From NCBI RefSeq assembly GCF_964204865.1, contig NC_135256.1, positions 14,756,001 through 14,820,000 of the forward strand: 64,000 nt of DNA, read 5' to 3'. The stretch is from Styela clava. Lineage: Eukaryota. The notes under the pieces are model-generated. The model saw nothing but the letters and a program-made list of their open reading frames with translations. It searched no databases and was not told where the DNA came from. This document shows, one piece after another, positions 30,412-55,567 of the stretch. How positions within the stretch are numbered: the first letter of the stretch is position 1; each line of letters begins with the position of its first letter. A program made the translations under genes and the position numbers.

Positions 30412-32725
30412 CAGCGATTCCCAAACTGTGGTACGCGTACCACCTGTGGTACGCGAGAGTCTTTCAGGTGGTACGCGACCAACTTTCAATAATTTGCAAT
30501 GTTGCGTTTCAATTACCTTTAATTTGTGGTTTCGCACGTTTATGAAGCAACACTTATTTTGTTCAAGATGATCAAACGCCAATTACCAACTTTCATGACC
30601 TTTGACCGATGCTGTCAGCAAAATATTTGGCGGGAACGCTCTCCTTACCGGCCGTCCCAGACTACGTACGGTTGCTATTCGTACTTGCTTTCAAAAGCCT
30701 GCGGTGTGTGAATATTGCGAAATTTTGTTTAATTCAACTATTGACAACATGTCTAAACGAAATTACAGTCCAGCTTACATAAAGTACGGATTCATAGCTA
30801 TTGAACACAACGGAGAAGTTTTGCCGCAATGTGTAGTGTGCATGAAAACGCTTGCTAATTCGGCTATGAAACCAAGCTTACCCCAACGACATCTTGACAC
30901 GAATCATCCCGACAAGAAGGATCGAAATGAGAGTTTCTTTCAGCGACTGGGCGAGCAAGTGAAACGACAGCGCTTCGACAACACTGGCACAATTTATCAG
31001 AGAAAGAAGTGTGCTGTCAAGGCATCCTATGAAGTCGCTCTCCTGATAGCAAAAAATCAGAAAGCACATACCATTGGAGAGCGCCTCATTATGCCAGCTG
31101 CAAAGATGTTAGTAAAAAATGTACTTGGTGAAGAGGCGGCTGCAAAGCTAGTAAGTGTTCCCCTCTCCAACAATACGGTTAAGAATAGAATAGAAGAGAT
31201 GTCAGTCGATATTGCTGAGCAAGTGATTTCAGGAGTGAAAGATTCAGAGTATGGTTTTTCCATTCAATTGGACGAGTCGACGGACGTAACAAATAACGCA
31301 CAGTTACTTGTGTATGTTCGTTATACACAAGAAAAGGCTGTAAAAACTGAATTACTTATGAGCAAAGAACTTTCAGGTACAACAAAGGGAAAGGATATTT
31401 TCGAAGCATTAGACAGTTTTTTCAAAGTGAATAAACTGGACTGGGGAAAGTTGATTGGCTGTACAACAGATGGAGCTCCATCAATGCTAGGACATAAATC
31501 AGGCTTCAGAGCTCATGTGACGGCTGTGGCGCAAAACGTGACTTTTGTTCATTGTTTTATTCATAGATTCGCCCTATGCGCGAAAGTGCTACCTCAGAAC
31601 ATGTTATCATGCTTGAACCGAGTTATCAAACTAGTAAATTTCGTCAAAACATCTGCTCTGAATACTCGGTTGTTTAAACTTCTTTGTGAGGATCTCGGTT
31701 CTAACCACAGCTGTCTCCTCTTCTATACGGAGATGCGCTGGCTCTCTCGTGGTAATGCAACAAGGCGCCTGTTTGAACTGCGACATGAGCTTCTGCAATT
31801 CTTCAAGGAGAAGAATCACGATTTTCAAAACGACCTGGAGAGCAAAGATTTTCTTACTAGATTGGCATATCTATCAGACATTTTTGAAGTTCTGAACAAC
31901 TTTAACCTGTCGTTTCAAGGACCCAATCTAACTGTAACAGATTTCATTTCAAAGCTTAGAGCACTCATTCGTGAGCTGGACCTCTGGACATGGAATGTTA
32001 GCAATCAAAACTACGGAATGTTCAAATGCCTCACTTCTGTTGAGAAAAATCCTGATGGTGGCATTTCTAAAGAAATTATTGATCATCTTTCGCAACTAAA
32101 GACGGAGCTATTGAATTACTTTCCTGATGTTGCATACTGTGCTTACTCCGTCAACCCATTTTTCATTGATCCGGTTGATGTGCCTGTAGGGACCGGGGAA
32201 CAAGAAGAACTAATAGACATTCAAACTGAAGAGGCAGCAAAAATAAAACATAAGGAATGTTGTCCAATCAATTTCTGGTTGAGCATGGCATCATCGTATT
32301 CTAACCTAGTACGTCACGCTGTTTCCCAGCTATTGATTTTTCCATCTACGTGGGAGTGCGAACAAGGGTTTTCGGCTTTGATGGCCATCAAATCGAAAAG
32401 CCGAAATCGTCTTGGAACGCCAGAACATGACTTTCGATGCGCTGTCAGCAAAGCTCTTCCTCGCATTGACCAGCTGGTGGAGAAAAAACAACTACATCCA
32501 TCTCATTAAAATTTTTAATTGGCTTCATTTTGTTTAATTTATGGTTTTTATCTCTTTCTGGAATGACATTTGTCAAATCTTAATGCTGCTACATGCTCAG
32601 TTTTCTTATCTACAGGTGCATAGTTTATGGTTTGAGATATTCTAGTCAAGTGTAACTTAGGTGGTACGCGAACGCTGCACAAAATTAAAAATGGTACGCG
32701 GGAATGAAAAGTTTGGGAACCACTG
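30412..32725 (+). mobile_element. Full-length autonomous hAT transposon, Buster/Charlie subfamily (2314 bp)
   Basis: TIRs cagcgattcccaaact / agtttgggaaccactg; perfect TSD acttacat (30404-30411, 32726-32733); ggtacgcg subterminal repeats at both ends; intact ORF. Confidence 0.95.
30749..32509 (+). CDS. hAT DDE transposase (BED finger; ZBED5/ZBED8/FAM200-like), 586 aa from the first ATG
   Basis: CVVC..H..H BED finger, LDESTD, TDGA, HCFIH (CxxH), RW, CEQGFS, C-terminal dimerisation region; no introns or stops. Confidence 0.95.
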   Translation: MSKRNYSPAYIKYGFIAIEHNGEVLPQCVVCMKTLANSAMKPSLPQRHLDTNHPDKKDRNESFFQRLGEQVKRQRFDNTGTIYQRKKCAVKASYEVALLIAKNQKAHTIGERLIMPAAKMLVKNVLGEEAAAKLVSVPLSNNTVKNRIEEMSVDIAEQVISGVKDSEYGFSIQLDESTDVTNNAQLLVYVRYTQEKAVKTELLMSKELSGTTKGKDIFEALDSFFKVNKLDWGKLIGCTTDGAPSMLGHKSGFRAHVTAVAQNVTFVHCFIHRFALCAKVLPQNMLSCLNRVIKLVNFVKTSALNTRLFKLLCEDLGSNHSCLLFYTEMRWLSRGNATRRLFELRHELLQFFKEKNHDFQNDLESKDFLTRLAYLSDIFEVLNNFNLSFQGPNLTVTDFISKLRALIRELDLWTWNVSNQNYGMFKCLTSVEKNPDGGISKEIIDHLSQLKTELLNYFPDVAYCAYSVNPFFIDPVDVPVGTGEQEELIDIQTEEAAKIKHKECCPINFWLSMASSYSNLVRHAVSQLLIFPSTWECEQGFSALMAIKSKSRNRLGTPEHDFRCAVSKALPRIDQLVEKKQLHPSH

Positions 32726-33008
32726 ACTTACATGGTGACGTGATAATAAAACTTTCGAAGAGAAAATTTCGTTTTGATTTCAAAACACCAATGTTTCGAA
32801 AATACCCAGCCCTAGTAGTTCTGCCAAAGTACTTAACATTTGATACCATGAGATGATAACGGTATTATCGGGCGAACTTTAAGATATTCTACCATTTACT
32901 ATCTAACACTGGTACTGTATTAAAATCGCCTTACATCTGTTTAAAAATGTTTTTTTTTATGTTTATTTAGCGTTTACACACATATTCATTTATAACAAAT
33001 ATTATAAA

Positions 33009-33641
33009 ATGAACGCATCACCCAGAACAACGACATTGGTCAGCACTACTATCGTTACATCGACTTCGTCTGATTCTGGTTCATCTTTAAATGGTTTCCA
33101 ATGGTATGAAATCATTGGACCATTGATTGGACTTGTGTTCTTGGTTGCCATATTTTTGGCGTTTTGTAAATGCGTTATCGAGATTTGTAAAGAAGGTATA
33201 TATTCACGCCAGCAAGACCAAGCCGCGGCTCAATCACGTAATCAAGTTGGTGCTAGCAATGGTTCGTGTGATGTCGAGGATCTTCCGCCAAGGTATTCCA
33301 CGTCTGGGATTGCAACAATAGATTTGGAAAATAATATCATCTTAGAAACTGAAGCGGAAAGACGACGCCGGGAAAGAAGAAAACAAGTCATGGGCCCAGA
33401 AGATAAATTGCCAACGTATTCTGAAATTATTGAAGAAAATCGTAAGAAATCTGCCAACGATAAACTTGAAGGCGAAAACCCGGTTTTTAATCCGGACGAA
33501 CTTGACGTTCGATCTTTACCTAACATTCAAGAGGACGACACCAGTGAAGATGCTGTGTTCGAACATGAGCCGGATCAAGTTAGCGTCATTTCTGAAACGG
33601 ACTTGTCTCCCCCACCTCCATATACATCAGTAAATACATGA
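33009..33641 (+). CDS. Single-pass membrane protein with three PY motifs (210 aa), no signal peptide
   Basis: Thr/Ser-rich N-terminus, TM IIGPLIGLVFLVAIFLAF, juxtamembrane CKC..C, then PPRY, LPTYSEI, PPPPY in an acidic tail. Confidence 0.85.
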   Translation: MNASPRTTTLVSTTIVTSTSSDSGSSLNGFQWYEIIGPLIGLVFLVAIFLAFCKCVIEICKEGIYSRQQDQAAAQSRNQVGASNGSCDVEDLPPRYSTSGIATIDLENNIILETEAERRRRERRKQVMGPEDKLPTYSEIIEENRKKSANDKLEGENPVFNPDELDVRSLPNIQEDDTSEDAVFEHEPDQVSVISETDLSPPPPYTSVNT

Positions 33642-34975
33642 AATCTTCAGTTTAACAAGATGAACAAAATGATTCGTTTTATTCGAATATGCGCAGCGAG
33701 ATATATAAGAACAAGAGGGGAAAACTTAATATCAATGAGCGATAGTTTAGGTATGGACTGAGATATTGAGCTAACAAATAACTCTCGATAAAATATGCTA
33801 CGATAAGATATTTTCCGGTCACGCACACTTTCTGCGAATTACTTCATATAATTTTTTTTTTTGCTTGCAAGTATGAAACGCATCTTATCAATGTCGTGGC
33901 TTATCTTGAATCGAAGTATTTCGAATGTCCGAGCGTTTGCAAATTGATACACGAATTTACTTTCAATATTGTTATTTACTGGGTTTATATTTCGGAACTA
34001 AACACCTATAATAAACCAAGTATATCGCGGCGAAAATAAGTGCATTTTCTGCAAATATCTTAGTAAAATGTACTTTTATCATTCAAAGAAGTGATTAATA
34101 TGCAGTGGTTGACCTTTACAAACCATAGGTCAAATGCTCACCAATTCCATTTATTTAGAGTGCTATTCTATTACTTTTACACTTCAATTTAGTGCTAAGC
34201 ATGTGCCTTATATATATATATATATACTTGATTTAGTAATGCATTTACTACTAAATCTGTATGGCTGTTTGCCCCTTTTCACCTTTATTACACTCTTTTT
34301 GTTTTCACTATACTATTGTGCTCTTCAAAGCTATAGTCCTTTCACAGATTTATGAACCATGTTCAACTCTGGCCTAAATGCCTAATCCTACTATTTTTTA
34401 TTTATTTATTTCATATCTTGCCAAATATTGTTGAAATATTTTTGTAATAAAATACTGTCATTGTGAAACAACGTCGCGTCATTTTTGTACATTGTCTTTT
34501 AGCGAATGGGTTCACATGAAATTAGACGATCAAGTTTCGATTGTAACTATAATAAATCAATTTGATGTGACACAGTGACACGACTAAGAATCGGAAGAAA
34601 TTAAAACACCATGAAATACTTCGATCATATTGATCATATTTGCTTCACGCGGATCCGATAGAGTATGCGCCAACGCCCAATTTTCAATTTGTCGCTGTGT
34701 GCATATTTTCATTCCAAATTGTTCGTCCTGATTCGGGTGAATCCAACCCGACCAAAATTGGGATTCCTCTCAAAAAAATTATCAATTATCTTTGTAGGCC
34801 TAAAAATGCAAATCTGTATGAGCACAATAAAAAAGTAACATTGCTGTTGTTCGTTTTCACTTGCTATATTTTATACTGAATTGTGTCTACTTTGTTGTTT
34901 AGATTTTAACTAAATGTGAAGTGTATTGTTTCAAATGCAATAGCGCATGACCACTCGTCCCAATTTGGTCATAAC

Positions 34976-35509
34976 ATGGTGAATGCTCTAGATATATCTG
35001 CAGCATTATTCATCAGTTTGGGGTTGATAACTATATTCATTTGGATATTTTTATCCGTGTGGGATCGCATAAAATGCTGCGGCACAAATCCTCTTGATTG
35101 TTGTCGTGGAAATATCGATGGCGTAAGAGATACAAGGTCAAGTGTGAGGTGAAATTTAAAAATTCATTGTAATATGTATATATAATGTTACAAAGTGCTT
35201 TCTTTCATTAAGTACTGCTATTTCATTTTGTGTTTTATATTCCACATCATACATTTTAGTGGTTCAGCAGAAATATTCAGCGTTACGACAGGCAATCTTA
35301 GTGAAGTTTGGGAAAACAATCCTCCATCTTATTCCTCACTTGAAGGAGATTTTTCAACCTGGATCATTGAAATTGATGAGATAAACGATACTGAAACTCT
35401 AGAAGAAAAAGATGAACAGTCGGACGAACTACCAACGTATAACGATGTAGTAAGCGAAACACAAACATATTCAAATAGAAGCGCAGTTGACGATGATGCA
35501 ATCAAGTGA
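34976..35509 (+). CDS. Small single-pass PY-motif membrane protein (exons 34976-35148, 35260-35509)
   Basis: TM AALFISLGLITIFIWIFLSVW, CC...CC, phase-2 GT-AG intron, PPSYSSL and LPTYNDV in an acidic tail. Confidence 0.8.
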
Positions 35510-39109: not shown

Positions 39110-42100
39110 ATGATCAAACTAACCATGTCGAACGTCACGTGCTTATTGCTGATACTTTGTATGACCAATATAAGACAAGTTTTCTCTCAATGTGCCTGCC
39201 CTTCCGGGTGTCAATGTAACGGTGCTACAGTTACATGTAACAGTGAGTAGTGTTTTGTTATTTGCTCGTTTTCTTGATTTTTGCTTGAATTTGGTTATCT
39301 TGGTTTTTCGCATAGTTCAATTTAATGTCATTTAAGTACGTCGTATACGTACGTTTTGTGTTAATGGACAGATATTGGTTAATGAATCACGGTGTCTGAT
39401 AAGATGTGCTTGTTTATAATATTGCGCACTGCTCAATGAAAAATGATGTCAACGGGTAAGGTTAACCTGATCAAGGTAGTAACTATGGTTACTTTATGTA
39501 TATATATATTCATATTAGCAAGAAACATGTTCCATGATCATTGCTTGTGATTATAAGCTATTTTTAGGAATACTGATACAAAATCTTTTTATATATATAG
39601 ATGTGACACTGGAACCCGATCTTTATTGATTCACTTATGTCATTTATATTGAGTGCGTATAGAAAACCTAGAGTAGATGTAAATCTTGTAAAAGCTGCGA
39701 TGTCATACCACGTAAATCTTCTTATCTGTGTTGGAAAATTATACAGAAACTTTAGGCACAAAAAGATGATGTAAATATGCTGAGAATTTGAAAAAATTAA
39801 ACAGTTCGTCTGAATGTTTTTTCTCGACATTTTTTCCATATTTAGACATAAAGGTTTTCCCCGAATGCCTGCCAGCGGGATCAACAAGACTTACAGTATA
39901 CAACTCAAAGAACCTGACTACAATATCCAGCATTCCCAAGGACTTAACTTACCTAGAAGTAACAGATACTAGTGTATATAGCGTGTCAAAACACGCTATC
40001 GCAGACGCTTCCATGTTACAGGTAGGTAACACTTCAGTATATATTTCATTAGTCGTTTAGTCACAAGGTCGTTTTCTTATTTAATAATTGATTATTTCAG
40101 TGACGACGATTTTTAGTTTATTTATACGTTTTGAGTGTATAGTTTTTATGATGTCTTTGAACATACGACGGCAATGACGAATTTGTAAGATAAATTGCAA
40201 TCTCAGTCGTTAGTCACGGGTAGATTCATTGACTGTGGATTTGAAATAAAAGGACATTAAACGGATAGTTTAATTAACAAAGTGAGTACTTTTAAAAAAA
40301 AATTAAAAAAAAATAGTAAAAAAGCAAATTAAGCTTGGTACTAACTTTCATTTAAACTTTCAGTGGTGGGATTCTAATTTTGTTTGTCAGCCGGTTCCAT
40401 AACAGAAGTCATATTTTTCGGCCGGTTCTGTTATATGTTTTTTTAGTAATGCTAGCCGGTTTGCTGATCTCATAAGATTCCGCGAGGCGGTTCTATAGAA
40501 CCGGTGCGAACCGGCTGAATCCCACCACTGGACCTACCCAGTACGGATTGCTATCTATTTTCATTATTGACCTGTATACCTATATTTTAAAAACACTGCA
40601 TTACCAGATTAGCCATAGAATGTTTATAATTGCACTTTTTTTTATTTATAACGAAATATATTGTCTTAGTATCATGAGTTTTTAATATTATTTTCAGACT
40701 CTGATGTTCAGTTATAACGATCAGTTAAGACAACTTGATCTAGGTGAACCGAGTGATGGTAGCCATCCATTGACAACTCTAAATCTGACGAAATGCTCAG
40801 TGCTGAGTGAAGTCGATAATGTCAAAGAATATATCAACTTGCAATTTATTACTATATCTTCCTGTAATCTTCAAGTGAGTGAAATAATCAATAGAATGAT
40901 ATTTATCACAACAGATATAGATTATTGATGCAGGCAAGAGGATGCTACATAGGGCGAGCGGCAGTAAAATAATTGTGAAGAAACCAAACTATGAATTATA
41001 TGATCAGTTATATTATATATCTTACATTGTACCTACTCAATTTGCAATGTCATATTCTTATTGAAATTTATTTATAGGAAATAGATGATGACATGTTCAA
41101 AGGACTTCGAAAAGTGAAGACACTTGATATTTCACATAACCACCGACTGGATGACATTGATCGAGATGCTTTTGAGGACTTGGACGCTTTGGAAAGTCTT
41201 AGCATGAATGATTGCTCGTTGAGGAAGCTATATTCGGAATATTTTGATAACGCCTATCATAAAAATTTGGAATACGTCAATACATTGCTAAATCCTCTTC
41301 AGTGCTATAAGATGTGTGATTTCATGCAATGGTATTGGGGACATTCAAGTTTTTTGAGTTATGCTTTTATCGGTGAGTACAGATTTCATAACAGTTTCTT
41401 ACGTTCTTTTATTTCAAAAATAGGTACGTTTTCCAGCAATACTGACCTCTCTCAATGAAACAAAATAGAACTTAACTTATGAAATTAATTGAACATATAA
41501 TTACATGCCAATATAAAAGAAAGAAATCATATAGTAAAATTCGTAGCGTCAGTGCTGAGTAAAACAACTTGGCATACAGCCTTGCTAGCTGTCTTTAACA
41601 CGTCCAGCTGATAAATGTTTAACTACTAATGTATTCATGTGTAACCCGTATAACAGACTGCAAAGTCATTTATTTTTGAAAATTATGATTTCTTACTGCT
41701 TTATGACAATTTTTCGCATTGTGTGTGCAAATTCGAGTTAGTTATTATATCAGGGTATTTTTCTTGTTTTGCAAGGTATACTATAGCCCAGTGTGACCAA
41801 CCTGCTTTCGACCGCGAACGACTGAAATCTTCGACATAGCTCGCGATCGACTGATCGGTAATAAGGTCATAAACAAAAATCAATGAATACTAAATACGCA
41901 GATAACCTCACACACGCATACAAAAATTCCACCGCTGCCAATAAGCTCGGCTTTGCGGGTGCATTCTCAATAAAATTGCCACAAAAATTTGCATTTTTAA
42001 TATTCAATTTTCTAATTTGATTATGTAATTGTACTCGGAGTAAATGTTTCATCGTGTATTTTAGATTTCATCAAATCATACATTCCAGATCTAGGGCCTG

Positions 42101-43086
42101 TCTAATTTTTAGTCGTAAGTGTTTTTAATTTCTCAAAAAACCCTAAAAAGTATCCATGTATTATTTAAACAGCGAATAATGAATATTCTCAAACCATAAA
42201 TGTTATATGTCTGCTCAAACTTCAGTATATAATTTACAATTTTCTTAAAATCCAATGTTTTGCTCGATTGGAATTAAAAACAATTGGGCATTCTGATGGC
42301 ATTGCTGCCGTTGCGAATAAAACAAACACACTGCTATGGAAGTGACACAATAACTTTGACATAGTGCAGAAATTGTTGTAGGGTTGTTTGCCAGTCAAGT
42401 CACACGATATTCTGCGAGTTCATTTCTAAAACTTGGCAGTAGTGAAACTTGCATTGGTTACGTAATAATATGCTCTATCGGGCTTTTCATATCGAATTAC
42501 TGCATGCGTATATTGTATATTGCATGTACAACATTATATTCTTCCTCTTTTAAAACACACAACAGGCGCTGTATGAAACTGGTTCAAGGCAATTATTTGA
42601 AGTATGTTAATAAATTTACCCAACCCTTGATAGCTCTTTACTTGCTTTTTAGGAAGCTGCACAATTCAAAGCTACGGAAACACGTATGTGTACATAGTTT
42701 CCGATTTAAACCGATATGAGGCAGGATGTCCAACAGCCTTCGGTGTTATCATAGGCGCAACACTTGGAGCATTTTTCTTCATCTGTATTGCAGCTTGCGT
42801 GTTTGTAGTTGTTTGTGGAATTGATTACCGGAAATATTGTTGCTTTTGTTGCAAGAGCCAGAGGAATCGAAGAAATTCTAGCGATAATAGTAGTGCCAAT
42901 CAGGATCAAGATCACACTTACGCCACGGCGTACCAGACACAAAATGAAAAGGCACATATCAACTACCCTGAAGGTGCCATGTATACTGCCGCGCCACCAA
43001 GTTACGAAGATGTCACTAAAGCCGTGGATCAAGAGCAATCTCAGTCCATAAATATACCGGAGGTGGCTTCGTCTTCTACAACTTAA
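39110..43086 (+). CDS. LRR single-pass receptor A (exons 39110-39242, 39846-40021, 40698-40874, 41078-41372, 42653-43086)
   Basis: Signal peptide, LRRNT CACPSGCQC..C, LRRs (LRKVKTLDISHN, LESLSMNDCSL), LRRCT NPLQC..MC, TM, YCCFCC, tail PPSYEDV; all splice phases match. Confidence 0.88.
40361..40530. mobile_element. 170-bp hAT-like MITE in intron 2 of receptor A
   Basis: Perfect TIR cagtggtgggattc / gaatcccaccactg; internal ccggtt repeats; no TSD recognisable. Confidence 0.7.
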
Positions 43087-44519
43087 AACATGTAGGCCGA
43101 TGAAATAATTGATGTAAACAAAATCACTCAACAACGCTATTCCAATATTTGTAAAATCAACCTAATTGCCTGTTATGTAACTATTTTGTGTGCGACGTTT
43201 TGTGAATTTCACAAAAGTAAAATTCTGTGATGTAAACAAAGATGAACAATATTTAACCGAGAAAATGATGTGCTTTTCAGTGATCTTTTAGTTATACCAA
43301 GGTATAGATTCATAACAAATGAAAAGTAGCATCAAAATGACAACTTTATTTAAATCTTCACGTTTTGTTATGACATATATTTTTTGCAAATGCTGAAAAT
43401 GTCAAGGCCACGGTGAATAATTTAGCATCCTCTGAAACGTGGAATTCAAAATTCCTCATTTTTTAAATTGTTAACGAGTAGTAGGAAAAAAAAATTTTGT
43501 GCGAAATATGTCAACAAAGTTGAATATAACTAAATTTGGAAAGTAATTTAATCTCACTCACTCTGTCATTTTTACTATTTTATTTTGATTTTATATAAAA
43601 TATTTACACTGCGATCTTGCATAACAAAACATCTTGGAACATTTTCTATGTCAATTCTTTGATATTTGCTTTGAAATGGGTTGAAAATAACATAAACCTT
43701 TAGTTGGTTACTATTTTACTGGACTTCATAACGTTGCGTTAGCATTAATTCTCTTCTGGTGTATAACATATTCTGGTGCTAACATATTCATCGCGGTTTA
43801 GAATCAATTTGTTTGAAAATATACAGGGTATATCTCTTTACAAAAGTTTTTCAAGCACCCAATGTTAAATATGCATATGTATACTAACAGTGGAAAATTG
43901 ATAAAAATACAATTATATGCTGTAGTTATTTTCAAAAATTGACACGCTGAACGCTAAATAAGACGTGATGAAGTTTGGTTAATTTCAAGTATGAACCATT
44001 ATAATGGATCGTGACAAAAGTCAAAAGTTTATAATTTAATTTTTTTTTTTATTTATCCTCAGCTTTAATCTTGTTTTGAATCATACTTTGACTTGCTGCA
44101 AAATTGTAATGAATCTTGTTAATAAACCAGATCTTTCGAGGAAAATTTTTATCGGTTGACTCCAAATTTTGAGTTTCACAGAAATTGTCTCTCGCTCACA
44201 CTCCTGGTTGACAAAATCCGAAGGCCGACCTCACGTTAAAAATATTTTCGATCCCAATTCCAGAGAAAACCAAATTTTTAACCCAAACTCCTTCTTCAAC
44301 GTCCATGGAGAATGCTTATTCAACGTTCTGTTTTTTAGTTTCTGTTTGAAAATTTTGGTTTTAATTACACCACTAGTGCTGGAATTCCAACTTCTAACTC
44401 ACGAAAAAGTCAAATTTTCTAATTAGCGTCAAAATAAGGAGATGATAATTCGAATACGACTCCTGTTGTGTTATCGACGTCATCGATGAAAGTGAAATGT
44501 GATTGTATAAACGGTCACT

Positions 44520-44685
44520 GGGTAGAAAACGCTGTTCGTCCATCAACGCTAATTACAAGGACTGTTAGACTGAGGTAAGTTACATTGTCAGGCAAACTGC
44601 CTAGTGTTGTCTGTTAGATTGCCTTGGGATTCGAAGTGGAATCGATGAGTTCCAGTTTTGTTGTTCACACATTTTCTGGAATTAA
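44520..44685 (-). pseudogene. Inverted, decayed LRR exon fragment
   Basis: Minus strand reads IPENV*TTKLELIDS...*QTTLGSLPDNVTYLSL; 44567-44611 is the exact reverse complement of 47337-47381. Confidence 0.6.
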
Positions 44686-45872
44686 AACACTAACATGCAA
44701 TTTAAAATATATCTAAAAACAGGGCAGTAGAGGCATCTATGTCATTAGGTGAAATTAAGAACAATACCATATGGCGACAGTTTATAACTTCCATAAATAA
44801 GGAGTGCCTTACATAGAACTACTTCGAAACTTTTGTGGCATATCTGTGCAAAAGTATTTAAATAAATTGTGCACTGTCACCAAGTTTGTCAAATAAATTT
44901 TTACAAATATTGTACTCCCCACGAATGGCACAACCAGAAACAATATAGATAATAAATTGCTTTAATAATTCATTCATTCTCCCGGTAAATTTATTTGTGC
45001 GGTTGGCCTATGTTGTCATACGTAATGGTCTGCCAGTCTTCTGCGTTAACGTTTTATTTTAGCGTTCACAAAAAGAATAAGTTCTGACCATCGGATATCC
45101 ACGGACTGTTTAGTAAAATTTTGTGAAAATGAGTCGCAATTGGAGTCGGTTTCAGATGGTGTTTGATAAGCACAGGCTTTCTCCGTCGGGTTGGCGATAA
45201 GAAGTTTTCTAACAAAGTCAGAAGCGAAACAATTTGACATAAGCATAATCTATCCAACGAACACATTCAATTAACTTTCCGCTAGAGTAAGATAGAAATA
45301 TCGACGGGCTTTGTTATAGGACGCAAGTATACAATAATATTGATAGAATTATTCTGAAAAGCCGCAGTCGGCGGAGTAACAACGGCAGGCTGCATGGCTC
45401 CTTCATGTCTGGAAAAGATTTAGATACTCCGCCAAGCAAAAGGAGTGGATAATTCAAAATAAACTTTCACACAAAATACTAAGGTTTTTAATGGTAAGTG
45501 TGAATTTTGGTAATTAAATGGGTTTAATACATACTACCAGTATACTATTTTTAATCAACAATGAAAATATGTAGAAACGGTTTCGTTGAATTGTTCAATT
45601 GTTTCTCGGGCACCATGGTATGATATTATTGATTTGGATTCCAACAAGGTTTCTTGAAATGTTTAATTTAGGTTATTCATTAATTCGCGAGAACGAGAAA
45701 CATCTTAAATCTTAAGTAGTACTATTTCGTAAATGTTCATATTAGATATTCAGCATTCAATCGCACATGATCATCTCTTGCGAGTTTTGCGCATATCACA
45801 AGAGATGACTCGAGTGCCAATTTTATTACTAAGTTTTGGGAGCCGATTACCGTGCCTCTGTATTTCTTTACA

Positions 45873-45949
45873 CAGGGTGAGCCAAAAAATGTTACCAATT
45901 TTTACATCCAGAATATAAAAAAATAGTAACATTATTTTGGTCCACCCTG
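45873..45949. mobile_element. 77-bp Tc1/mariner-type mini-MITE
   Basis: Imperfect TIRs cagggtgagccaaaaaatgttac / gtaacattattttggtccaccctg, followed by TA. Confidence 0.6.
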
Positions 45950-46186
45950 TATATTCTTTTTTACTATTTCATACTGATTATACGGATAATACTAGTTATA
46001 TACTACAATATTATTTTAGTAATCATATTTATAAAATATTTTTTCAGACAGATAACATTTGAAGTATCCAGCCGTAGAAAAAGTGTAGAAAACATATAAC
46101 GCTATAGCAATAAAGTTTGTGTGATTGCTTTCTCAGATTTAGGTAACAAAATTATTCTCGTCTGGAAAATATAAAAAAAGCGTAAT

Positions 46187-49100
46187 ATGATCATGCTACG
46201 GGCTGTATTTGTTACTTATCGATCTTAAGATCGGTAAGTATGTTGATAGGTATTTGTCTGTTTGTCTGTCTGTCTGTTTGTATGTTTGTCTGTTTGTCTG
46301 TTAGATGAACGCGATATCTCACGAACGCGTGGTTGAATCTGCTCCAAATTTTGCATGTGCATGCATCTTACCTCGGACCAGAAGCATATAGATTTTGGGT
46401 TAATTATGTCGTATAATTAGCGAGTTATTAACTAATTACCGATCTAAGATCGATAAGTCTGCGGTCTCCCACCGATATTCTCGTTTTAACTTTTTTGATA
46501 TTTGGAATCTGCGCTATGGCAGACGTCTGGGAGGATTGCCAACATTGTAACTGTTATAACAGCACAGCATCTTGTAACAGGAAGTTATTGCATGTTATTG
46601 CGTATAGATGTGTCGATGTACTGATACTGCTAAATTCACAACGAAAAAGTATGAAAACTCAAAAAATAGCTAATAGGACAAAAATCCTCTTAATATTATG
46701 AATAATCATCTTATCTTAAATCGTCGGCCATTAGTCAAACTTTATATACTTTTTAATCTTATATTTTTTTTGTTGGCTTCCACGCAAATATTCATAAATC
46801 GTATTGATCCATTGGGGCCCTAATATTTCTATTTGTCGAACAATAATTTTTTTAAAGCTATTCGAATTACGAATTTGTAGATATTTTATTCTCTATATAT
46901 GCAAATGGAAAGTTTTTATTGCAAAACAAGAAAACAGATGTAGAATTATAGCTTTGACCAATTTGCTTGAATGAATGATGAATGAATTTGCGTGAATGAT
47001 ATTCTCGAGATAGAACAGGAGCTGTGACAATACTTCTGGAATTTTTCTATATTTTTTTTCAATTTTATCAAAAATGAGTTTATCTTTGAACATTCTCTAG
47101 CATTTCTATACTTTCATCTTTATTTTTTTGTTTTCTCATGTTTATGGATTCACAGTTGAAAACCATCCGGAGTTGAAAACACTTTGTTGCCTAATTTTAG
47201 ACATATTTTATTTAGAATAAGCGTATGATCAAAATAAACGTTTTTATGCGTACATTTGCAATTCAGACATCACCGAAATTCCGTTCTGTATACCATCGAA
47301 TACAATTCAACTGACTATAACTGACTCCCCCAAACTGACAACACTAGGCAGTTTGCCTGACAATGTAACTTACCTCAGTCTCAACAATGTTGGTATAAAA
47401 TCTATACACGACGATGAAATTGGATGTAATACTCCGGGTAGGTGTTTGATACATAACATACATATTACATATTTGATACATTAACTATAAAAACTAAATA
47501 AAGAGTTGTAGAAATGTAACTTCATAATTAGCCTTCGTACACAAGTTCGTTCCTCCAATATACTTTGATGAATATATTTATTGTCTGCATTACAACGATA
47601 AATTCAATGGGATTCTTATTGATACTCTCGTCATATAAACATTCTTTGCTTATACTAACCGTACCATTGTTGCCCATAATCTTTGAGAATATTATTATTA
47701 GCGACTTTCTCTTGAAGATAATAAACAAAATAGAATATCCTCTTTTAGTTTTTGAAAGTGATAGCATGTGAAGATCTGGTAATAGTTGATCTCGAATATG
47801 GGTCGCACAACTGGTCTGTTTCGTTGCAAGAAATACAAATTACCAGATGTAAAAATCTTGATGTTGTATCGAATTTTGACCAAGTAAAATCTTTGGAGGT
47901 CATAACTATAACAGAAACAAATATCAAGGTATGTACGCTGGTTGAGATTTACTAACCAAACTAAAACATATTATCGTATAATGAAGCGAATTACATCTAT
48001 TTTTACGATCAAATTGGAGCAAACAAAAACAAAACTGTGCCAAATTTAAGAAGAAAAGTAAAAACCTATCTAGGATTGTAAATATACGATACGAAAAAAG
48101 CAACCTGCGTATCATTCAAAAAAATATTTCAGCAAATTGCAACCTTGGAAGAGTTACCTTATGAGGGTTATACGTGAGCGTTTCTGCATTCACAAATATG
48201 GGAAAACTAAATTCCCTATTCTATACGACATCGGCACGGAACAAATTCAATGCACAATCGAAGCATGTACTGTGTTATTAAACACGACTCAATTCAGATA
48301 AACATATAAAGTGAACCAGTGATGCAATTATAAAAAAAAAATCAGAATAGTTTTGATTTTTATTTTATTTTCTTGCAGACTATTGACGAAAATATTTTTG
48401 GAGCACTGCCCTTGTTGAAACATCTTGACATATCTCAAAACGCTCACCTCAAAGTTATGATTCAATATGCTTCAGCCAAATTGGATTCTTTAAAAACTCT
48501 TGACATAAGTGAATGCAATTTATTCACCCTCTACTCAGAGTATTTACTCACTCATAAACAAATGAATTACTATCGGTTTGGACTTCAGGAAATCCGTTTG
48601 CTGATGTGTGAGTTTACAACATGGCTTATGGGGTATCAAGGTTTTATTAATAATTCAATTTTAGGTAAATTGCTTTTATGATAGTTTTACTTTGTGCCTT
48701 AAAATACTTCATGTTGTAAGTCAAACATGCATGGTGCGACACTTGCATCAAACACGTCTTTGTATACAACAGTCGGAGGCTAACATAATTTACAACAATA
48801 ATTTAAGGTAGACGAGAAAGTAAACTTGATAAACCAAGTCAGTTCTTGAACTAGCAATATCTTTCTCAAAAAATTTCTCATCGATATTTTCTGCGCTTTT
48901 ATTAGAAAATAGATTTTGTACAAATTGTAAAATGACTTTTTTACACGATTGCGGCGATCCTTTCAGATTACCTTAGAATAAACAAGCTATAATTTCTGTT
49001 TGAGTTGGAGTTTCGGGTTAGTTGTTGGACCAACCAGACAGAATGTAACTAAAAATACTAAATATGATTATGTTGAGTGGTGTGTATATTTCCCTCGCTT

Positions 49101-49502
49101 TTTGTGATTGGCAGTTAATTTTTTCTCAATTTTTTTAGCTCACAATTGGGATATCTTTTTGTCACAGGCGACTGCTATTTTAACACCACCGAGGATTCTA
49201 TTACATATAAAGTATCAAAGTTGACAGGCCTGGAAGCAGGATGCTCATACACAAAAGCTGGTCTGATTATCGGCTGTACTTCAATATTTGTGCTTTTGTT
49301 GATAATAGCATTTTTCATTATCATATCAAAATATGATCGACAATGCAAAAAATATTGTTGCCATTGTTGCGACCGACAGAGACTTAAGAATGCTGATGAC
49401 GAAGACCACGACATGTCTGAAAGCAATTCCTCCGAGCAACAGAAAGAAAAATTAGACGGAACAACTCTGAATACACTTTCATTTCCAGAAGATAATGCAT
49501 AG
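46187..49502 (+). pseudogene. LRR receptor B, disrupted paralog of A (exons ~46187-46579, 47267-47437, 47749-47928, 48379-48664, 49168-49502)
   Basis: HINE insertion in the signal-peptide exon; exon-1 donor reads GG instead of GT; exon 2/3 phase mismatch; LRRCT 'GNPF' lies in a shifted frame; TM and KYCCHCC retained; no PY motif. Confidence 0.8.
46212..46483 (+). mobile_element. HINE/DINE-1-like element, copy B
   Basis: ttacttatcgatcttaagatcggtaagta 5' end, (TGTC)n, gatcgataagt plus 3' hairpin; inserted at a T-run without a clear TSD. Confidence 0.8.
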
Positions 49503-50109
49503 GATGATAATATAAATTCAGCTGCTTTGTTTTGGGCTTATACATCTAGAAGTTGTTTTGCTTAAACTCATCTTGTATAAAGAAGAAATCTTGTATATCA
49601 AATTAAATAAACTACTCATGAAAAATAAAAACTCGATCAAATCGTTTTGAAACTTGTTTGAGGGGAGATTTTCATGCATGTAGTTATTCAAAATCAATTT
49701 TACATACTTAACAAATTAGAGTGTATTCTTCCTACTGTATTGAACAATTGTTGTCACAGACTTAGCTTCTCGTAAGATTTATGTAATCTGGTATTCTGCT
49801 GACTACACTCAAGCCGACTTACCGTTATTCTGCATTGTTGCAAGTCTATACTACCTAGTTTTTCCTAGACTAAATTGTGTCGTTCGTCCACGTACCTGTC
49901 TTATCTGTATACCAATTGTAAAAAAAAAAAACATTGTCGCCGGATAATTGCGTTCTGAATTATATGGGTGTAAATTAAAGCCGTAAATTTCATAATAAAA
50001 TCGACATACCATGGCGATTAAACTATCATTTGGTATACGCTTGAGCAACACCAATTTGGATAAGATCAGTTTTTACCTCACGCTGATTTTAATTTCTACT
50101 CTCTAAATC

Positions 50110-50170
50110 TACCATGGGCAAACTACAGCCCGCTGGACAAATCCGGCCCGCTGGGTAATTCAATCTGGCT
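50110..50170 (+). mobile_element. Truncated hAT-MITE left end
   Basis: atgggcaaactacagcccgctggacaaatccggcccg resembles the ends of the other hAT MITEs here; no partner end found. Confidence 0.35.
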
Positions 50171-50678
50171 CAACCAAACTAAAACCAAGTTTTGATGTTT
50201 TTGTTAAAATATAGCTCAAGGAATTTGTTAGGATTGCGATTAAATTTAGTTCTGGCACCAGGCTCATTGTTTTCCACCATTGCTTTTGCAACACCTCGCC
50301 CGCCCATGTGTGTCTGAATGTCTGAACAGTAACATTTGCTACTAAGTTCAAATAAATGTTTTCATTGTACATCAAAAATGAGGTATTTGTCTTGGCATGC
50401 TCGAATTTATGGAAAAACATTAGTCTTCCTGCGTTTTTTTCTAACTACACAGTTTTACAACGTATCATATGGTTGAAACTCTGTTTGCATGGTTTGATTT
50501 TTCAATTCAACTTTCAAGAATTAAAAAAACGTCAAAACATAAAATGAATGGTAAAGTAGCCCATATCGCGGCTGGTTGTTTTCTAGCTTCAATTATCAAT
50601 TTGCTTGGTTGATAAATTTAGAAAAATAGTAATAATATTCAGTTACTGTAAATCCAGTGTTAGATATCGGAGGCATCG

Positions 50679-50852
50679 GGAATACTGTTCAGTTATAACG
50701 TTTGAGATAACAAAAAATCCGAGTCCAAAAATGGACAAAACGCCCCATATTTCACCTTTATACTCGGAATACTGTTCAGTTATAACGTTTGAGATAACAA
50801 AAAATCCGAGTCCAAAAATGGACAAAACGCCCCATATTTCACCTTTATACTC
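50679..50852 (+). repeat. 87-bp direct tandem duplication upstream of receptor C
   Basis: ggaatactgttcagttataacg...cacctttatactc occurs twice; single copy at about 57751 in the paralog. Confidence 0.9.
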
Positions 50853-51394
50853 GATCTTTCGATTCTATATTTGTGCTTAGTTTTGATCGTCTGTCCTGGC
50901 TGGACAAACAATCGAAGCTGACTTGCTGTTCAAAAATATTATGAAAGCGCACATCTCTGAATATTATACAACAGGTCGTCTGTATTCTATCAAACATTAA
51001 CTACGGGAGGCTGTACGAATCTGCTAAAAACAATCAGGAAATTTAATATAACTCCACGTTAAAATGTAAGGCAAAAACAGCCAAATCGGTGATTTTAGCA
51101 AAGCATGGGATACAATCAAATGGGATCCCGGGGGTACTTTATAAGTATATTACGTATTCTGCTCGACATTTATCTTATAACAATTTTTGAATTAAGCAGA
51201 AATCTTTTTATCCATGAGTTTTTGCTAAATGCATTTCGTACAAACGTAATTGTTTTACCTTATCAATTCACGTGACGAATAACTATTAACAGTTTCTCTG
51301 GAATAACTTTTTGTTGAACATAATATGCATTAGTGCAGTTGTATTTGAAATTTGCATCAAAGTAGTAGACTGTAAGTAGGCGGCTGTATTCGTT

Positions 51395-54300
51395 ATGACA
51401 AGCGTAAAAATATCGCTATGCCTCTTTGTAGTCGCTCTTTTAATCTCCATAGCAAATGGAATATTGCTTGACGCATCGGAAAAAGCTTCAAGGAAAGACG
51501 ATGACACGAATCGCCTATGTCCTGTATGCCCTGAAAATTGTGACTGTTCGGATGAATCATCGCCGGTATGCACAGGTATGTTGAGATACACATAAATATG
51601 TGTTGTGTTTCAAGCACATCGATTTATGTCCGTATTTTATTTCCTACAAATTGTGCGTTTTTAGGTCTTCCAGATGGTGTTTTGAATATGATATGAATTT
51701 TAATTATTAGACTCAATCTATGGTTACTAGGTTTTTTATTAGGATTTATTTAAAATGATATATAGAATACTGCGATCTAAGACTCATGAATTTCCTCGAC
51801 AAAGCATAATCCATTATCACAACCTTGGTTACATTGATGGGGGCTCCCGAAGTATGCAAACCAAGATGGCGGACATCGGAATGTAATATGTGTACTAGGT
51901 TAGGGTTAGGCCATAATTTTAGCTATAAATACTACGGGGGGCTCTTGGCTAGTCTTCGAACTGATTATAGGACTAAAATAAGGAAAATTGGAAAAAAATT
52001 CTCGCCTAACCCTAACCTGTTACCCATGTTACGTTCCGATGTCCGCCATCTTGGTTCGCACACTTCGGGAGCACCCATTGATGTCTACCTTGGGTAGTCT
52101 ACGGGTGACTCTAATATGCCCGAGCGTACAGCTTGTTCTTGTCATGGTTTGACCAATTTTTCATATGTTTTGTTAAAATGAAAGCTTACATTCTGTTCGT
52201 TCTATGTGGTGTTTGGTAATACACTTTTGAATTGTAATAAATTAGATAAAGTACAAGTATTGTAATCTCAACTGATCAGTGATATTTACCAATAATAAAT
52301 TTAAGCGACGCCATATTTCTATAGGCAACTGGCATAATAATTCATATTTTACTCCCACGTGCCAAAACGACATAAGGTGTTTCAATATTCTTGGCATTGG
52401 ATGGAATTGAAAACTATTATCTTTTTTTTTATAATTTGACAAATTTATCAATTTATTGAATTATTTATAAGTCTTTACAAAAACGTTATTTGTAAGAAGG
52501 TTATGGTCATCTCCATATTGACCATATCCACATTTATTTCCTACTGTATGACTAATAATCTTGAACATACATCAAAGTTGTATAAAATGAAATAATCAGT
52601 GTAAAAAATATCTGATAACATTCCATGTCTTGAGAAGTTGAAGGTTACAATAATTACTGTAATACAATCTCAAGCACAAAGATATATATGTACAGCCAGA
52701 ACTTTTTTTCAATTTTTAAAATTAACATTAATTGTTATTTTTAAAACTGAAACCTTAGAAAATATATCATCAACAGTGAATATTTGTACATAAACTTACG
52801 TGTTTTATTCAACAGATATTTTTGAAATACCAAAATGCTTTCCTGATGGTAAAGAAATAGAGAGTTTAACAGTCCTCGACTCACCCCTTTTGACGTCAAT
52901 TGATGATGAAGATGCATTCGAACGTTACGACAAAAATCTCGAAATTCTTATTTTTCGCCAAACCGGACTTGGATACGTTAACTGGGAAGCTTTTGCAAAT
53001 GTTAAGAAATTGAAGGTGACAAAAAGGCATCTTGTACATTATAGTAAATTTACCAACGTGCAATTTCTACTTGAATCCCTATACTATATTCAAATGAAAT
53101 GATTCATTCAAATGATTAGCGTTAATCATTGTTAAAGGAGAGTGACCATGATTATATATGTTCTGCGGAGATGGTGATAATTTGCGGTGTTCTTGAAAAA
53201 AAAATTATTTGTCAAAGTTATAACTAGGACCGCGATTTCACAATACTGTATGAATTTTATTAGTATCGTTTATTTACCTTTCTCAACTAACAACAAATTA
53301 TCCAAAACTTGAGTGATTTTTACGATTTCATGGTCCAATTCTTATTGACTATTTAAATTACGTTGATAACTTTGCTAATAATAAATAAGTATTATTCATG
53401 TATTGTTTATTTTTCTATACAGACACTCGAAATATCATCAAGTCGGTTGAAATGCATTGAACCGATGGATCTAAGAAATTTACAAATTCTGAATTTGTCG
53501 GGCAACAATGATTTAAAATTTTGTACAGATCAAGAATTGTTTGTGGAAATGCCTTTTTTGGAAACATTGGATTTAAGAAACTGTAGCATTCAGGTAGAAA
53601 AACTTAAAACATTGTTATTTCATTTGCACAATTTTTTTGAAAATTGAGTCGAGTTTTATTTGCGCTAATATTCGAACAAACGACTGTTTCAAGCTATGGA
53701 TTCTATACTTTGTTTTTCAAATTTTTCTTGGTATACGACGTGCTTTTTAATATCTTTCATATTTAGGGAATGTATGAATATACTTTCCGTGGACCAAATA
53801 AACTTACTTACCTGAATATGAATTTTAACAACGAACTGGAAGAAATACCTAAAGACGCCTTTTCTGATCTTTCAAGATTACAAGAGCTTCATATAAGCTA
53901 TTGCGGGTTACGAACTCTTTATCCAGAGCATTTTTCCACGGCACATAGCGATGGAAGTTTGGAATCCGTGAAAGCGATTGGTAACTGTTGGAAATGTGAA
54001 ACAATGTGCAATTTTGGAGCATGGATGGACGACAACGACGACTTTCGCGACATTTTTGATGGTGAGCGGTGCAAAACGCCAACTTATTTGAGTGACGAAT
54101 TACTTCAAAATTTGGGCGAAAGTGAGCTCTGTTACATCTACACGACTGATGCTCTCATTGTGATAGGTGCACTTTGTTTAATGATGCTAACACTTATCTG
54201 CTGTTTTGCGTTAGCTTTCAAAAACTGTTTTATCGGAATGTGTAAAAGTAGTGACGTATACAGTTCAAACCCTACTAGTCAGCAGCAATCTAATTTACGA

Positions 54301-54567
54301 AGTGCACCTCGAACAGGTCGGGCAGGCGTAGAAAACTCCGCCGCAGAGACGAACGATCACGCTATTGTTACTGTTGATGGAGCGATGTCCACTGATTCTG
54401 TTGGGGGATGGTGTATACACGATATAGATCCACCTGGCTATGACGCAGTCGTAGGAAAAAATGATGAAAACATGGATATCATGACAATGACATTGCGAAA
54501 CGCAGATGACGCAGATTCAATGACAGATGTCGCCCCACCTCCTTATGATGAACATGCTTTTGCTTAA
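51395..54567 (+). CDS. LRR single-pass receptor C (exons 51395-51575, 52816-53015, 53423-53593, 53767-54567)
   Basis: Signal peptide, LRRNT CPVCPENCDC..C, LRRs (LQILNLSGN, LETLDLRNC, LQELHISYC), LRRCT GNCWKCETMC..C..P..L..C, TM, tail PPGYDAV and PPPYDEH. Confidence 0.9.
51839..52076. mobile_element. 238-bp fold-back MITE with 6-bp TSD in intron 1 of receptor C
   Basis: Long TIRs gggggctcccgaagt...ggttagggttagg / cctaaccctaacc...acttcgggagcaccc; TSD attgat; absent from paralog D at about 58939. Confidence 0.88.
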
Positions 54568-54570
54568 GTA

Positions 54571-55567
54571 TTATTGGACACGTTTAGTGGCCATAACGAT
54601 CGTTTCAAAATTTTGTTGTTATTGTTATTGTTGTTATTTGTCTCCGTCTCCATTTTTAAAAAATCGCTTTTCTCTTCGAATACTGGACCAATTGCTTTGC
54701 AATTTTCAGTGGTTAAAGATTATTGGACACGTTTAGTGGCCATAACGATCGTTTCAAAATTTTGTTGTTATTGGACACGTTTAGTGGCCATAACGATCGT
54801 TTCAATATTATGTTGTTGTTGTTGTTCTTGTTCTTTGACACGTTTTTAAAAAATCGCTTTTCTCTTCGAATACTGGACCAATTGCTTTGAAATTTTCAGT
54901 GGTTAAAGATTAATTTCTTCGCTAGAAGGCTATTACTTTTATTTATTTCAAAATTTTGCGTGAATTCTATGAAATTTGATATTTCGTCTAAAATTTTGCT
55001 GTATTATTTTTTATCCATGGGAACACTGATTTTAGTCAGTGTCATGACTGGCTGTACGTTTTGATTCTGAAAAATTCTTGCTACTGGAAATTCAGAACTT
55101 TTTTGAGGGTACCGGTAGCGTCAAAAGTACCGGTAAAGACTGATTCGCTCTGGTCTAACGTGTCCATATATTTGTGCGTAGCTCTCTTGTTGTTATTGTT
55201 GTTATTTGTCTCCGTCTCCATTTTTAAAAAATCGCTCTTCTCTTCGAATACTGGACCAATTGCTTTGAAATTTTCAGTGGTTAAAGATTAATTTTTTCGC
55301 TAGAAGGCTATTACTTTTATTTATTTAAAAATTTTGCGTGAATTCTATGAAATTTGATATTTCGTTTAAAATTTTGCTGTATTATTTTTTATCCATGGGA
55401 ACACGGATTTTAGTCAGTGTCATGACTAACGTTTTGATTCTGCAAAATTCTTGCTACTGGAAATTCATAACTTTTTTGAGGGTACCACCGGTAGCGTCAA
55501 AGGTACCGGTACGGACTGATTCGCTCTGGTCTAACGTGTCCATATATTTGTGCGTAGCTCTCTTGTT
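54571..55567 (+). mobile_element. Tandem array of a second HINE/Helentron-like family just after the stop codon of receptor C
   Basis: subTIRs tggacacgtt / aacgtgtcca, (TTG)n microsatellite, head-to-tail partial and full copies; absent after the stop of paralog D. Confidence 0.75.

What the first reader, a model, noticed from the sequence alone, without database searches (positions are those of the whole stretch)
33009..35509. Two Commissureless-like PY adaptors heading the LRR cluster
Seen: both proteins lack a signal peptide and a folded ectodomain, and both have PPxY followed by LPTY (LPTYSEII, LPTYNDVV) although the rest is barely alignable. Established: Drosophila Commissureless has a short N-terminus, one TM, then PPCY and LPSY, and uses Nedd4 to divert Robo to lysosomes; PRRG4 and PMEPA1 are vertebrate PY adaptors. 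Inference: these may be sorting adaptors, possibly for the neighbouring LRR proteins, or they may be the ancestral tail module onto which LRR exons were shuffled.
Basis: partly seen in the sequence, partly recalled or inferred. Interest (0 to 1): 0.7.

Follow-up and report, generated by a model that had tools for sequence, protein, structure and literature searches.

The report
Sea-squirt membrane PY-motif adaptor pair
Two neighbouring sea-squirt genes encode small single-membrane proteins with conserved PY motifs, which likely recruit Nedd4-type ubiquitin ligases to send some unknown membrane protein for degradation, a known kind of protein here in an unnamed family with no shown link to the receptor genes beside it.

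Summary
Gene 1 (33009-33641, 210 aa, no intron in the coding part) and gene 2 (34976-35509, 140 aa, one intron) each encode a short N-terminus without signal peptide, one transmembrane helix, then PPxY and LPTY. Gene 2 matches a RefSeq protein of Styela clava, and its intron is spliced in 2 of 3 RNA-like runs. Gene 1 belongs to an unnamed family (19 hits, all 168-242 aa, one from Clavelina) that keeps these motifs; gene 2 is probably a divergent paralogue. No fused form was found. The likely mechanism is Comm-like: WW-HECT ligase binding and endosomal sorting, with unknown cargo. Membership of Comm, PRRG, WBP1/Shisa or PMEPA1 is not shown (best Comm score 23 bits, cut-off 27). Robo is reported absent in Ciona. 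The neighbouring LRR receptors mostly carry their own PY motifs, and their tails are not homologous to this family by profile tests, so neither the 'adaptor for the LRRs' nor the 'ancestral tail' idea is supported. New member of a known kind; modest interest.

The parts
33009..33641 (+). Gene 1 coding sequence, 210 aa, one coding exon; Ser/Thr-rich N-terminus with an N-glycosylation sequon at residue 2, no signal peptide
   Evidence: ORF; 43%, 43% and 49% identity to P0001, P0002, P0005; whole ORF on one contig of run X1, parts in X2 and X3
33105..33185 (+). Gene 1 transmembrane helix running into a Cys-rich juxtamembrane stretch (palmitoylation inferred)
   Evidence: Hydropathy; invariant W32 and near-invariant P38 in 21 rows
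33285..33296 (+). Gene 1 PY motif 1 (PPRY; family DLPP[S/R/T]YS)
   Evidence: P93 and Y96 invariant in alignment A2
33408..33419 (+). Gene 1 PY motif 2 (LPTY, then acidic at Y+2 and hydrophobic at Y+3)
   Evidence: L134, P135, Y137 invariant; Y+2 acidic 22 of 22, Y+3 hydrophobic 22 of 22
33612..33623 (+). Gene 1 PY motif 3 (PPPY) near the C-terminus
   Evidence: Sequence; a PY motif downstream of the LPxY is present in 16 of the 20 homologues
32946..32970 (+). Candidate splice acceptor 38 nt before the gene 1 ATG (frame open to the ATG); 5' UTR intron or trans-splice site, use not shown
   Evidence: Sequence only
34976..35148 (+). Gene 2 coding exon 1: ATG, transmembrane helix, Cys-rich juxtamembrane stretch
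   Evidence: Joined product equals RefSeq XP_039251074 at 139 of 140 residues
35149..35259 (+). Gene 2 intron, 111 nt, GT..AG, phase 2
   Evidence: Skipped in contigs of X1 and X3, not in X5, whose contig 34876-35466 runs through it
35260..35509 (+). Gene 2 coding exon 2 with PPSY (35321-35332) and LPTY (35429-35440)
   Evidence: aligns to the gene 1 family core, hhalign 95.6%
34826..34902 (+). AATAAA followed 70 nt later by a candidate acceptor with an in-frame stop behind it; possible end of gene 1 mRNA abutting the start of gene 2
   Evidence: Sequence; X1 contig 33780-34822; ends not mapped
30412..32725 (+). Context: polymorphic hAT (Buster-like) transposon with 8-bp target duplication ACTTACAT, nested in an older element (30215-32814) that ends 195 nt before gene 1
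   Evidence: Pfam hAT dimerisation and DUF4371 below cut-off; ends and duplication; empty site in X5
39110..64000 (+). Context: tandem LRR-transmembrane genes A-E (E ends at about 69660, beyond the window); tails: A one PPSY, B none, C and D PPGY+PPPY, E PPSY+PPPY

Best explanation
These are two small single-pass membrane protein genes with conserved cytoplasmic PY motifs, probably paralogues, that likely act as adaptors for Nedd4-family ubiquitin ligases. Shown: the reading frames, the splicing of gene 2, the conservation of the helix, Cys cluster and PY motifs across an unnamed family, and WW-HECT ligase loci in the same genome. Inferred: (1) the helix inserts N-out/C-in without a signal peptide (type III); (2) the juxtamembrane cysteines are palmitoylated; (3) PPxY and LPxY bind WW domains of a Nedd4-type HECT ligase, and the YxxPhi that overlaps LPxY may add clathrin-adaptor sorting; (4) the adaptor meets a cargo through its short lumenal and membrane part, the ligase ubiquitinates cargo and adaptor, and both go to late endosomes and lysosomes, lowering the cargo at the surface, as Comm does for Robo. 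The cargo is unknown and is probably neither Robo nor, on present evidence, the neighbouring LRR receptors.
For: Motifs invariant across 21 aligned proteins down to 20-30% overall identity; PPxY before LPxY in 21 of 22, Y+2 acidic in 22 of 22; C-flank more positive than N-flank in 22 of 22, though by only +1 in both window genes; all 19 library hits 168-242 aa with one helix; no longer relative among 1867 candidates, weak evidence by the tool's own note; gene 2 annotated as a 140-aa protein and spliced in X1 and X3; four places where WW and HECT matches lie together on one strand (C9, C17, C18, C19); Atlas feature neighbours are all single-pass PY-type proteins (TMEM52B 0.92, BEAN1 0.89, Comm 0.89). 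Comm, PRRG4, Ndfip and PYT-1 work this way and share little beyond PY motifs (PMC12101832, bioRxiv 10.1101/2025.08.13.670147).
Against: No binding, localisation or cargo data exist. PY motifs also bind non-ligase WW proteins (38 WW matches in this genome) and can serve only the protein's own turnover. Gene 2's kinship is moderate: 9 of 500 local shuffles reach its score and its branch is very long (3.34). Expression of the intronless gene 1 is not cleanly shown: the runs are guessed to be RNA, X1 has depth in 23 of 30 bins and has a contig inside the gene 2 intron. Gene 1 has no annotated Styela record among 238 candidates. No 5' end was seen for either gene.
Confidence: 0.6

Rival explanations
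1. The PY motifs bind WW proteins but the proteins carry no cargo: they are ligase regulators or decoys, scaffolds for non-ligase WW proteins, or short-lived membrane proteins that only drive their own turnover.
For: The lumenal part is tiny (6 residues before the helix in gene 2) and poorly conserved; 38 WW matches in the genome, many away from HECT matches; CYYR1 is reported to degrade the ligase WWP1 (PMC11399591, title and abstract start only).
Against: The invariant Trp and near-invariant Pro at the lumenal edge of the helix look like a contact surface; Comm's lumenal juxtamembrane peptide is described as critical for function (PMC5578492 passage).
Confidence: 0.2
2. They are dedicated down-regulators of the five adjacent LRR-transmembrane receptors, co-located for co-regulation.
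For: Same strand, tandem, first LRR gene starts 3.6 kb after gene 2; 5 of the 6 frames with two or more PY motifs in 264 kb lie in this one cluster.
Against: 4 of 5 LRR tails have their own PY motifs and could recruit a ligase unaided; synteny in other species could not be seen; adjacency alone is weak.
Confidence: 0.1
3. The PY genes and the LRR tails share an ancestor (tail module onto which LRR exons were shuffled, or LRR genes that lost their ectodomain).
For: Clustering; similar PY spacing (29-35 residues in LRR C-E, 27-44 in the family); a 12-residue juxtamembrane likeness of gene 1 to LRR C and D, reached by 0 and 1 of 150 local shuffles, noticed post hoc.
Against: hhalign of the family against LRR C/D/E tails aligns only 7 columns at PPPY, gene 2 against them nothing; HMM scores of all five tails lie inside the local-shuffle range (80-271 of 500); the 12-residue likeness is not family-wide (1-12 of 12 shuffled means reach it); LRR tails lack LPxY and the Trp; intron positions differ.
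Confidence: 0.1
4. They are terminal exons of longer genes with an ectodomain upstream.
For: Gene 1 has an acceptor-like AG with the frame open to the ATG, in phase 1 like the transmembrane exon of LRR A; no 5' ends seen; many homologues may be ORF calls on genomic contigs.
Against: All 19 hits are 168-242 aa in a search without length limit; no longer relative; a Met lies 11-34 residues before the invariant Trp in all 21 rows with that Trp, including internal Mets in the longer calls; gene 2 has an in-frame stop behind its best acceptor and a 140-aa RefSeq model; no LRR exon remnant upstream of 39110, and the four lectin genes upstream end in their own stops.
Confidence: 0.05
5. They are true orthologues of Commissureless or PRRG that regulate Robo.
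For: Comm (PF15957) is the Pfam family hit by most members, 8 of 21 at E up to 0.5; motif order and the acidic and hydrophobic residues after LPxY match the Comm description.
Against: Best 23.3 bits, cut-off 27; neither window gene hits Comm; LRR tails A and E also hit Comm and WBP-1 below cut-off, so the match is generic; Gly before LPxY in 0 of 22; no Gla domain; no Robo in two Ciona species (PMC6389290 legend).
Confidence: 0.05

Closest known systems
Drosophila Commissureless (Pfam PF15957)
   Same: No signal sequence, one helix, juxtamembrane Cys, PPxY before LPxY, acidic and hydrophobic residues after LPxY (PMC5578492 passages).
   Different: Below the Pfam cut-off; Lys (17 of 22), never Gly, precedes LPxY; often a third C-terminal PY; much shorter lumenal part; Robo reported missing in Ciona.
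PRRG1-4
   Same: Single pass, PPxY and LPxY; PRRG1 and PRRG3 lack a signal sequence.
   Different: No Gla domain; in PRRG the PPxY follows LPxY, here the main PPxY precedes it.
Shisa-like group (WBP1, VOPP1, TMEM92, CYYR1) and TMEM52B
   Same: Short single-pass proteins with PY tails; TMEM52B is the best named Atlas neighbour (0.92 for P0009, 0.89 for gene 2).
   Different: No six-Cys lumenal domain (0-2 Cys before the helix, 0 in both window genes) and no signal peptide; the genome has a separate WBP-1 family gene on C10 over the cut-off.
BEAN1, PMEPA1/LDLRAD4 and C. elegans PYT-1
   Same: Single-pass Nedd4-binding PY proteins (BEAN1 and PMEPA1 function recalled; PYT-1, with three PY motifs); Atlas scores 0.81-0.89.
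   Different: Scores under 0.9 are leads only; no sequence match to these families in the Pfam copy searched; the PMEPA1 Smad-binding motif (recalled) was not tested.

Membership tests
PY-motif single-pass Nedd4 adaptors (functional class) | One transmembrane helix with cytoplasmic [L/P]PxY motifs | tested here: met
   One helix in 22 of 22; 2-3 PY motifs
PY-motif single-pass Nedd4 adaptors (functional class) | PY motifs under selection | tested here: met
   P93, Y96, L134, P135, Y137 invariant in 21 rows at 24% mean column identity
PY-motif single-pass Nedd4 adaptors (functional class) | Binds a WW-HECT ligase and routes a cargo to endosomes or lysosomes | not testable with these tools
   Four WW+HECT loci exist; binding and cargo need experiments
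Commissureless (PF15957) | Pfam score over the 27-bit cut-off | tested here: not met
   Best member 23.3 bits; window genes no hit; no place in the genome over cut-off
Commissureless (PF15957) | No signal sequence; PPxY before LPxY | tested here: met
   21 of 22 have this order; no hydrophobic leader in the window genes
Commissureless (PF15957) | Extended motif GLPSYDEAL | tested here: inconclusive
   Y+2 acidic 22 of 22, Y+4 hydrophobic 19 of 22, but Gly before LP 0 of 22
Commissureless (PF15957) | Sorts Robo | not tested
   Robo not searched in this genome; reported absent in C. intestinalis and C. savignyi
PRRG | Lumenal Gla domain; LPxY before PPxY | tested here: not met
   No Gla hit in Pfam and lumenal part of 6-32 residues; order reversed
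Shisa-like (WBP1, VOPP1, TMEM92, CYYR1) | Signal peptide plus six-Cys lumenal domain | tested here: not met
   0 Cys before the helix in both genes; WBP-1 best member 21.9 bits, cut-off 28.1
PMEPA1/LDLRAD4, BEAN1, TMEM52 | Family-specific sequence profile | tested here: inconclusive
   No TMEM52 hit among the 25 of 33 families listed; the newer PMEPA1 and BEAN1 models named by the Atlas may not be in the Pfam copy searched; Atlas feature scores 0.81-0.92
Unnamed ascidian family (A2) | W-x3-hydrophobic-x-P helix start, DLPPxYS, KLP[ST]Y-x-E | tested here: met
   Gene 1: 148 bits on a profile built without it, 0 of 500 local shuffles reach it
Unnamed ascidian family (A2) | Same, for gene 2 | tested here: inconclusive
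   hhalign 95.6%, E 1.1e-8; 34 bits, 0 of 300 coarse and 9 of 500 local shuffles reach it; lacks the Trp and the third PY

The most novel reading that the evidence does not exclude
An ascidian-specific family of Comm-like adaptors, kept in a lineage reported to have lost Robo, has been re-aimed at immune-type receptors: the two genes head a lectin and LRR receptor cluster, are made from one operon-like transcript, and switch off their neighbouring LRR receptors through Nedd4 ligases; the LRR tails may derive from the same module.
Probability: 0.1. Interest if true: 0.6.

Novelty: new member of a known kind. Interest (0 to 1): 0.33.

Why it matters
It adds an unnamed, conserved invertebrate-chordate family to the class of PY adaptors that tune surface receptors, and recovers a gene (gene 1) for which no annotated Styela protein turned up. 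If Robo is absent across ascidians, the cargo must be something else, and finding it would show what Comm-like adaptors do without Robo. The class itself is well known and has arisen or diverged many times, so the surprise is modest.

Tried and rejected
Run search: no RNA holder listed on record; the four RNA labels are guesses. Depths are per contig and were not used to rank expression; no 5' or 3' end could be read, and 44 loose ends, 81 differences and 145 pieces were not shown. Operon idea (AATAAA at 34826, acceptor at 34902, X1 contig 33780-34822): possible but untested; most Ciona operons lack AATAAA at the boundary (16 of 18, PMC1488885 passage) and four other AATAAA sites lie at 32745-34551. 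Paralogue searches in the own genome with gene 1, gene 2 exon 2, P0012 and P0007 found no other copy at useful E-values; these are lower bounds. Comm family search in the genome: 3 matches, none over cut-off. PDB profile search: only transmembrane-helix matches, best E 0.006 to a GPCR helix, rejected. Atlas structure search: all TM-scores under 0.35, models pLDDT about 0.5, rejected. Rfam: 0 matches in 13.5 kb. Metagenome scan with P0011: one 18-residue match, uninformative for synteny. Tree: gene 2 on a long branch, placement unsure. No fold or complex prediction was run: the proteins are mostly disordered and a WW-PY pair would pass by likeness to solved structures. Earlier findings: none. 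Literature searches with no paper: ascidian+PPxY+Nedd4, LOC120328610; supplements were not read and could list the gene.

Full report
Setting. The window is G000:C8:14756001-14820000 of a 377-Mb genome. Gene 2 matches a record named as Styela clava, a sea squirt. Upstream lie four C-type lectin last exons (three by Pfam; the fourth a near copy), then nested transposons, the two genes of the finding, and five LRR-transmembrane genes, all on the + strand.

Observation. Gene 1 is one frame, 33009-33641, 210 aa. Gene 2 runs 34976-35148 and 35260-35509, 140 aa, and differs from RefSeq XP_039251074.1 at 1 of 140 residues. Each has one hydrophobic helix near the N-terminus, a Cys-rich juxtamembrane stretch and an acidic tail with PPxY then LPTY. 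Gene 1 has a third motif, PPPY at residue 202. Chance does not explain this: 0 of 20000 shuffles reach the observed counts for either protein, and 5 of the 6 frames with two or more PY motifs among 4817 frames in 264 kb are in this cluster.

Are they real and whole? I laid 3 RNA-like runs (kind guessed by the tool) and 1 genomic-looking run. The 111-nt GT..AG intron of gene 2 is skipped in X1 and X3 (two studies) and not in X5. One X1 contig spans the whole gene 1 frame, and X2 and X3 cover parts. Against over-reading: X1 has depth in 23 of 30 bins and a contig inside the intron, so DNA or unspliced RNA may be in it; only 29334-29848 is covered by X5 and not by listed pieces of the other three. 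No 5' end was seen. Of the 10 listed differences in gene 1, 6 are synonymous, 4 are not, none is a stop, and the two inside PY motifs are synonymous (81 rows were not shown). Stronger evidence is conservation. A search at 115-368 aa gave 2 homologues of 238 candidates, and a profile search of 1.84 billion representatives without length limit gave 19 hits, all 168-242 aa. A search of longer proteins gave 0 of 1867 (weak evidence). In all 21 rows with the invariant Trp a Met lies 11-34 residues before it (gene callers force a start, so only the internal Mets count fully). No LRR exon remnant lies upstream of 39110 and the lectin genes end in their own stops. Terminal exons are therefore unlikely, although gene 1 has a phase-1 acceptor-like site with an open frame.

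The family. Alignment A2 (gene 1 plus 20 homologues) has six invariant columns: W32, P93, Y96, L134, P135, Y137. After LPxY, Y+2 is acidic and Y+3 hydrophobic in 22 of 22 (gene 2 included), and PPxY precedes LPxY in 21 of 22. The flank after the helix is more positive than the flank before it in 22 of 22, which fits an N-out, C-in anchor. Of 10 of the 18 new hits looked up, one is named, from Clavelina lepadiformis; the rest are unnamed, so 'ascidian family' rests on two species. Gene 2 aligns to the core with hhalign probability 95.6% and scores 34 bits on a profile built without either window gene; 0 of 300 coarse and 9 of 500 strict local shuffles reach that. I call it a probable paralogue.

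Link to the LRR genes. The LRR proteins have signal peptide, Cys cap, LRRs, helix and tail. Four of five tails carry PY motifs, none LPxY. The family profile aligns to tails C, D and E over 7 columns only, and all five tails score inside the strict shuffle range; the laxer control had favoured them (0-14 of 300), but it scattered the juxtamembrane cysteines. One hint remains: 7 of 12 juxtamembrane residues of gene 1 match LRR C and D (0 and 1 of 150 shuffles), found post hoc and not family-wide. The ancestral-tail idea is thus not supported, and receptors with their own PY motifs need no adaptor.

Mechanism. PY motifs bind WW domains of Nedd4-family HECT ligases, and Comm uses PPCY and LPSY to bring Nedd4 to Robo1 for lysosomal degradation (PMC12101832, abstract and Introduction). 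Such adaptors share little sequence beyond the motifs (bioRxiv 10.1101/2025.08.13.670147, passages). This genome has four places with WW and HECT matches together. I infer type III insertion, palmitoylation, ligase binding and endosomal routing of a cargo; none of these steps is shown. Sorting by YxxPhi is recalled knowledge. Robo is an unlikely cargo: a supplementary figure legend in PMC6389290 states that two Ciona species have no roundabout (passage); I did not test Styela.

Membership. It works like Comm but is not shown to be Comm. PF15957 is hit by 8 of 21 members at E up to 0.5, best 23.3 bits against a cut-off of 27, and by neither window gene; LRR tails A and E reach similar scores. 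The defining features in PMC5578492 (passages and one section) are partly met: motif order yes, Gly before LPxY 0 of 22. PRRG (Gla domain) and Shisa-like (six-Cys domain) features are not met, and a separate WBP-1 gene lies on C10. Atlas neighbours are TMEM52B, an unnamed arthropod cluster, BEAN1, Comm and PMEPA1, leads only. PMC10084454 (passages) says Comm does not exist in vertebrates.

Novelty and verdict. No paper held ascidian+PPxY+Nedd4 or the gene's locus id; the listings showed none on this family; supplements and subscription journals were not seen. The scan's earlier notes had nothing. Verdict: observation confirmed, interpretation partly supported; a new, unnamed member family of a known class. 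Interest 0.33.

Noticed in passing
window 30412-32725: hAT (Buster-like) transposon with an unbroken 636-codon frame and a perfect 8-bp target duplication; the empty site exists in run X5, so the insertion is polymorphic and recent. It sits 283 nt upstream of gene 1 and could affect its expression.
   Followed up: partly
window 30215-32814: Older non-autonomous element with imperfect terminal inverted repeats that hosts the Buster insertion.
   Followed up: partly
window 5286-25725: Four tandem C-type lectin genes whose last exons end in a stop right after the domain (probably secreted lectins); two are near-identical duplicates about 7.6-7.8 kb apart.
   Followed up: partly
window 39110-64000 and L003: Five LRR-transmembrane genes without a TIR domain; four have PY tails, so they may be rapidly endocytosed receptors. 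No close tail paralogue elsewhere in the genome. An hAT-like element lies inside gene E (about 66466-68413 in window numbering).
   Followed up: partly
window 44566-44694: Inverted fragment resembling an LRR B exon (56% over 43 aa) between LRR A and B.
   Followed up: no
window 34826-34902: Poly(A) signal close to the gene 2 acceptor, with X1 cover over most of the gap between the genes: possible operon-like arrangement.
   Followed up: partly
window 27200-29250: Almost no cover even in the genomic-looking run X5: possibly a structural polymorphism, or a filter effect.
   Followed up: no
P0010 and P0012: Both report the same longest-contig length (591378), so two family members may share a contig in another genome, as the two genes do here.
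   Followed up: no
window 33009-33641: Gene 1 has no annotated Styela protein in the searched collection although gene 2 does; it may be missed by annotation.
   Followed up: partly
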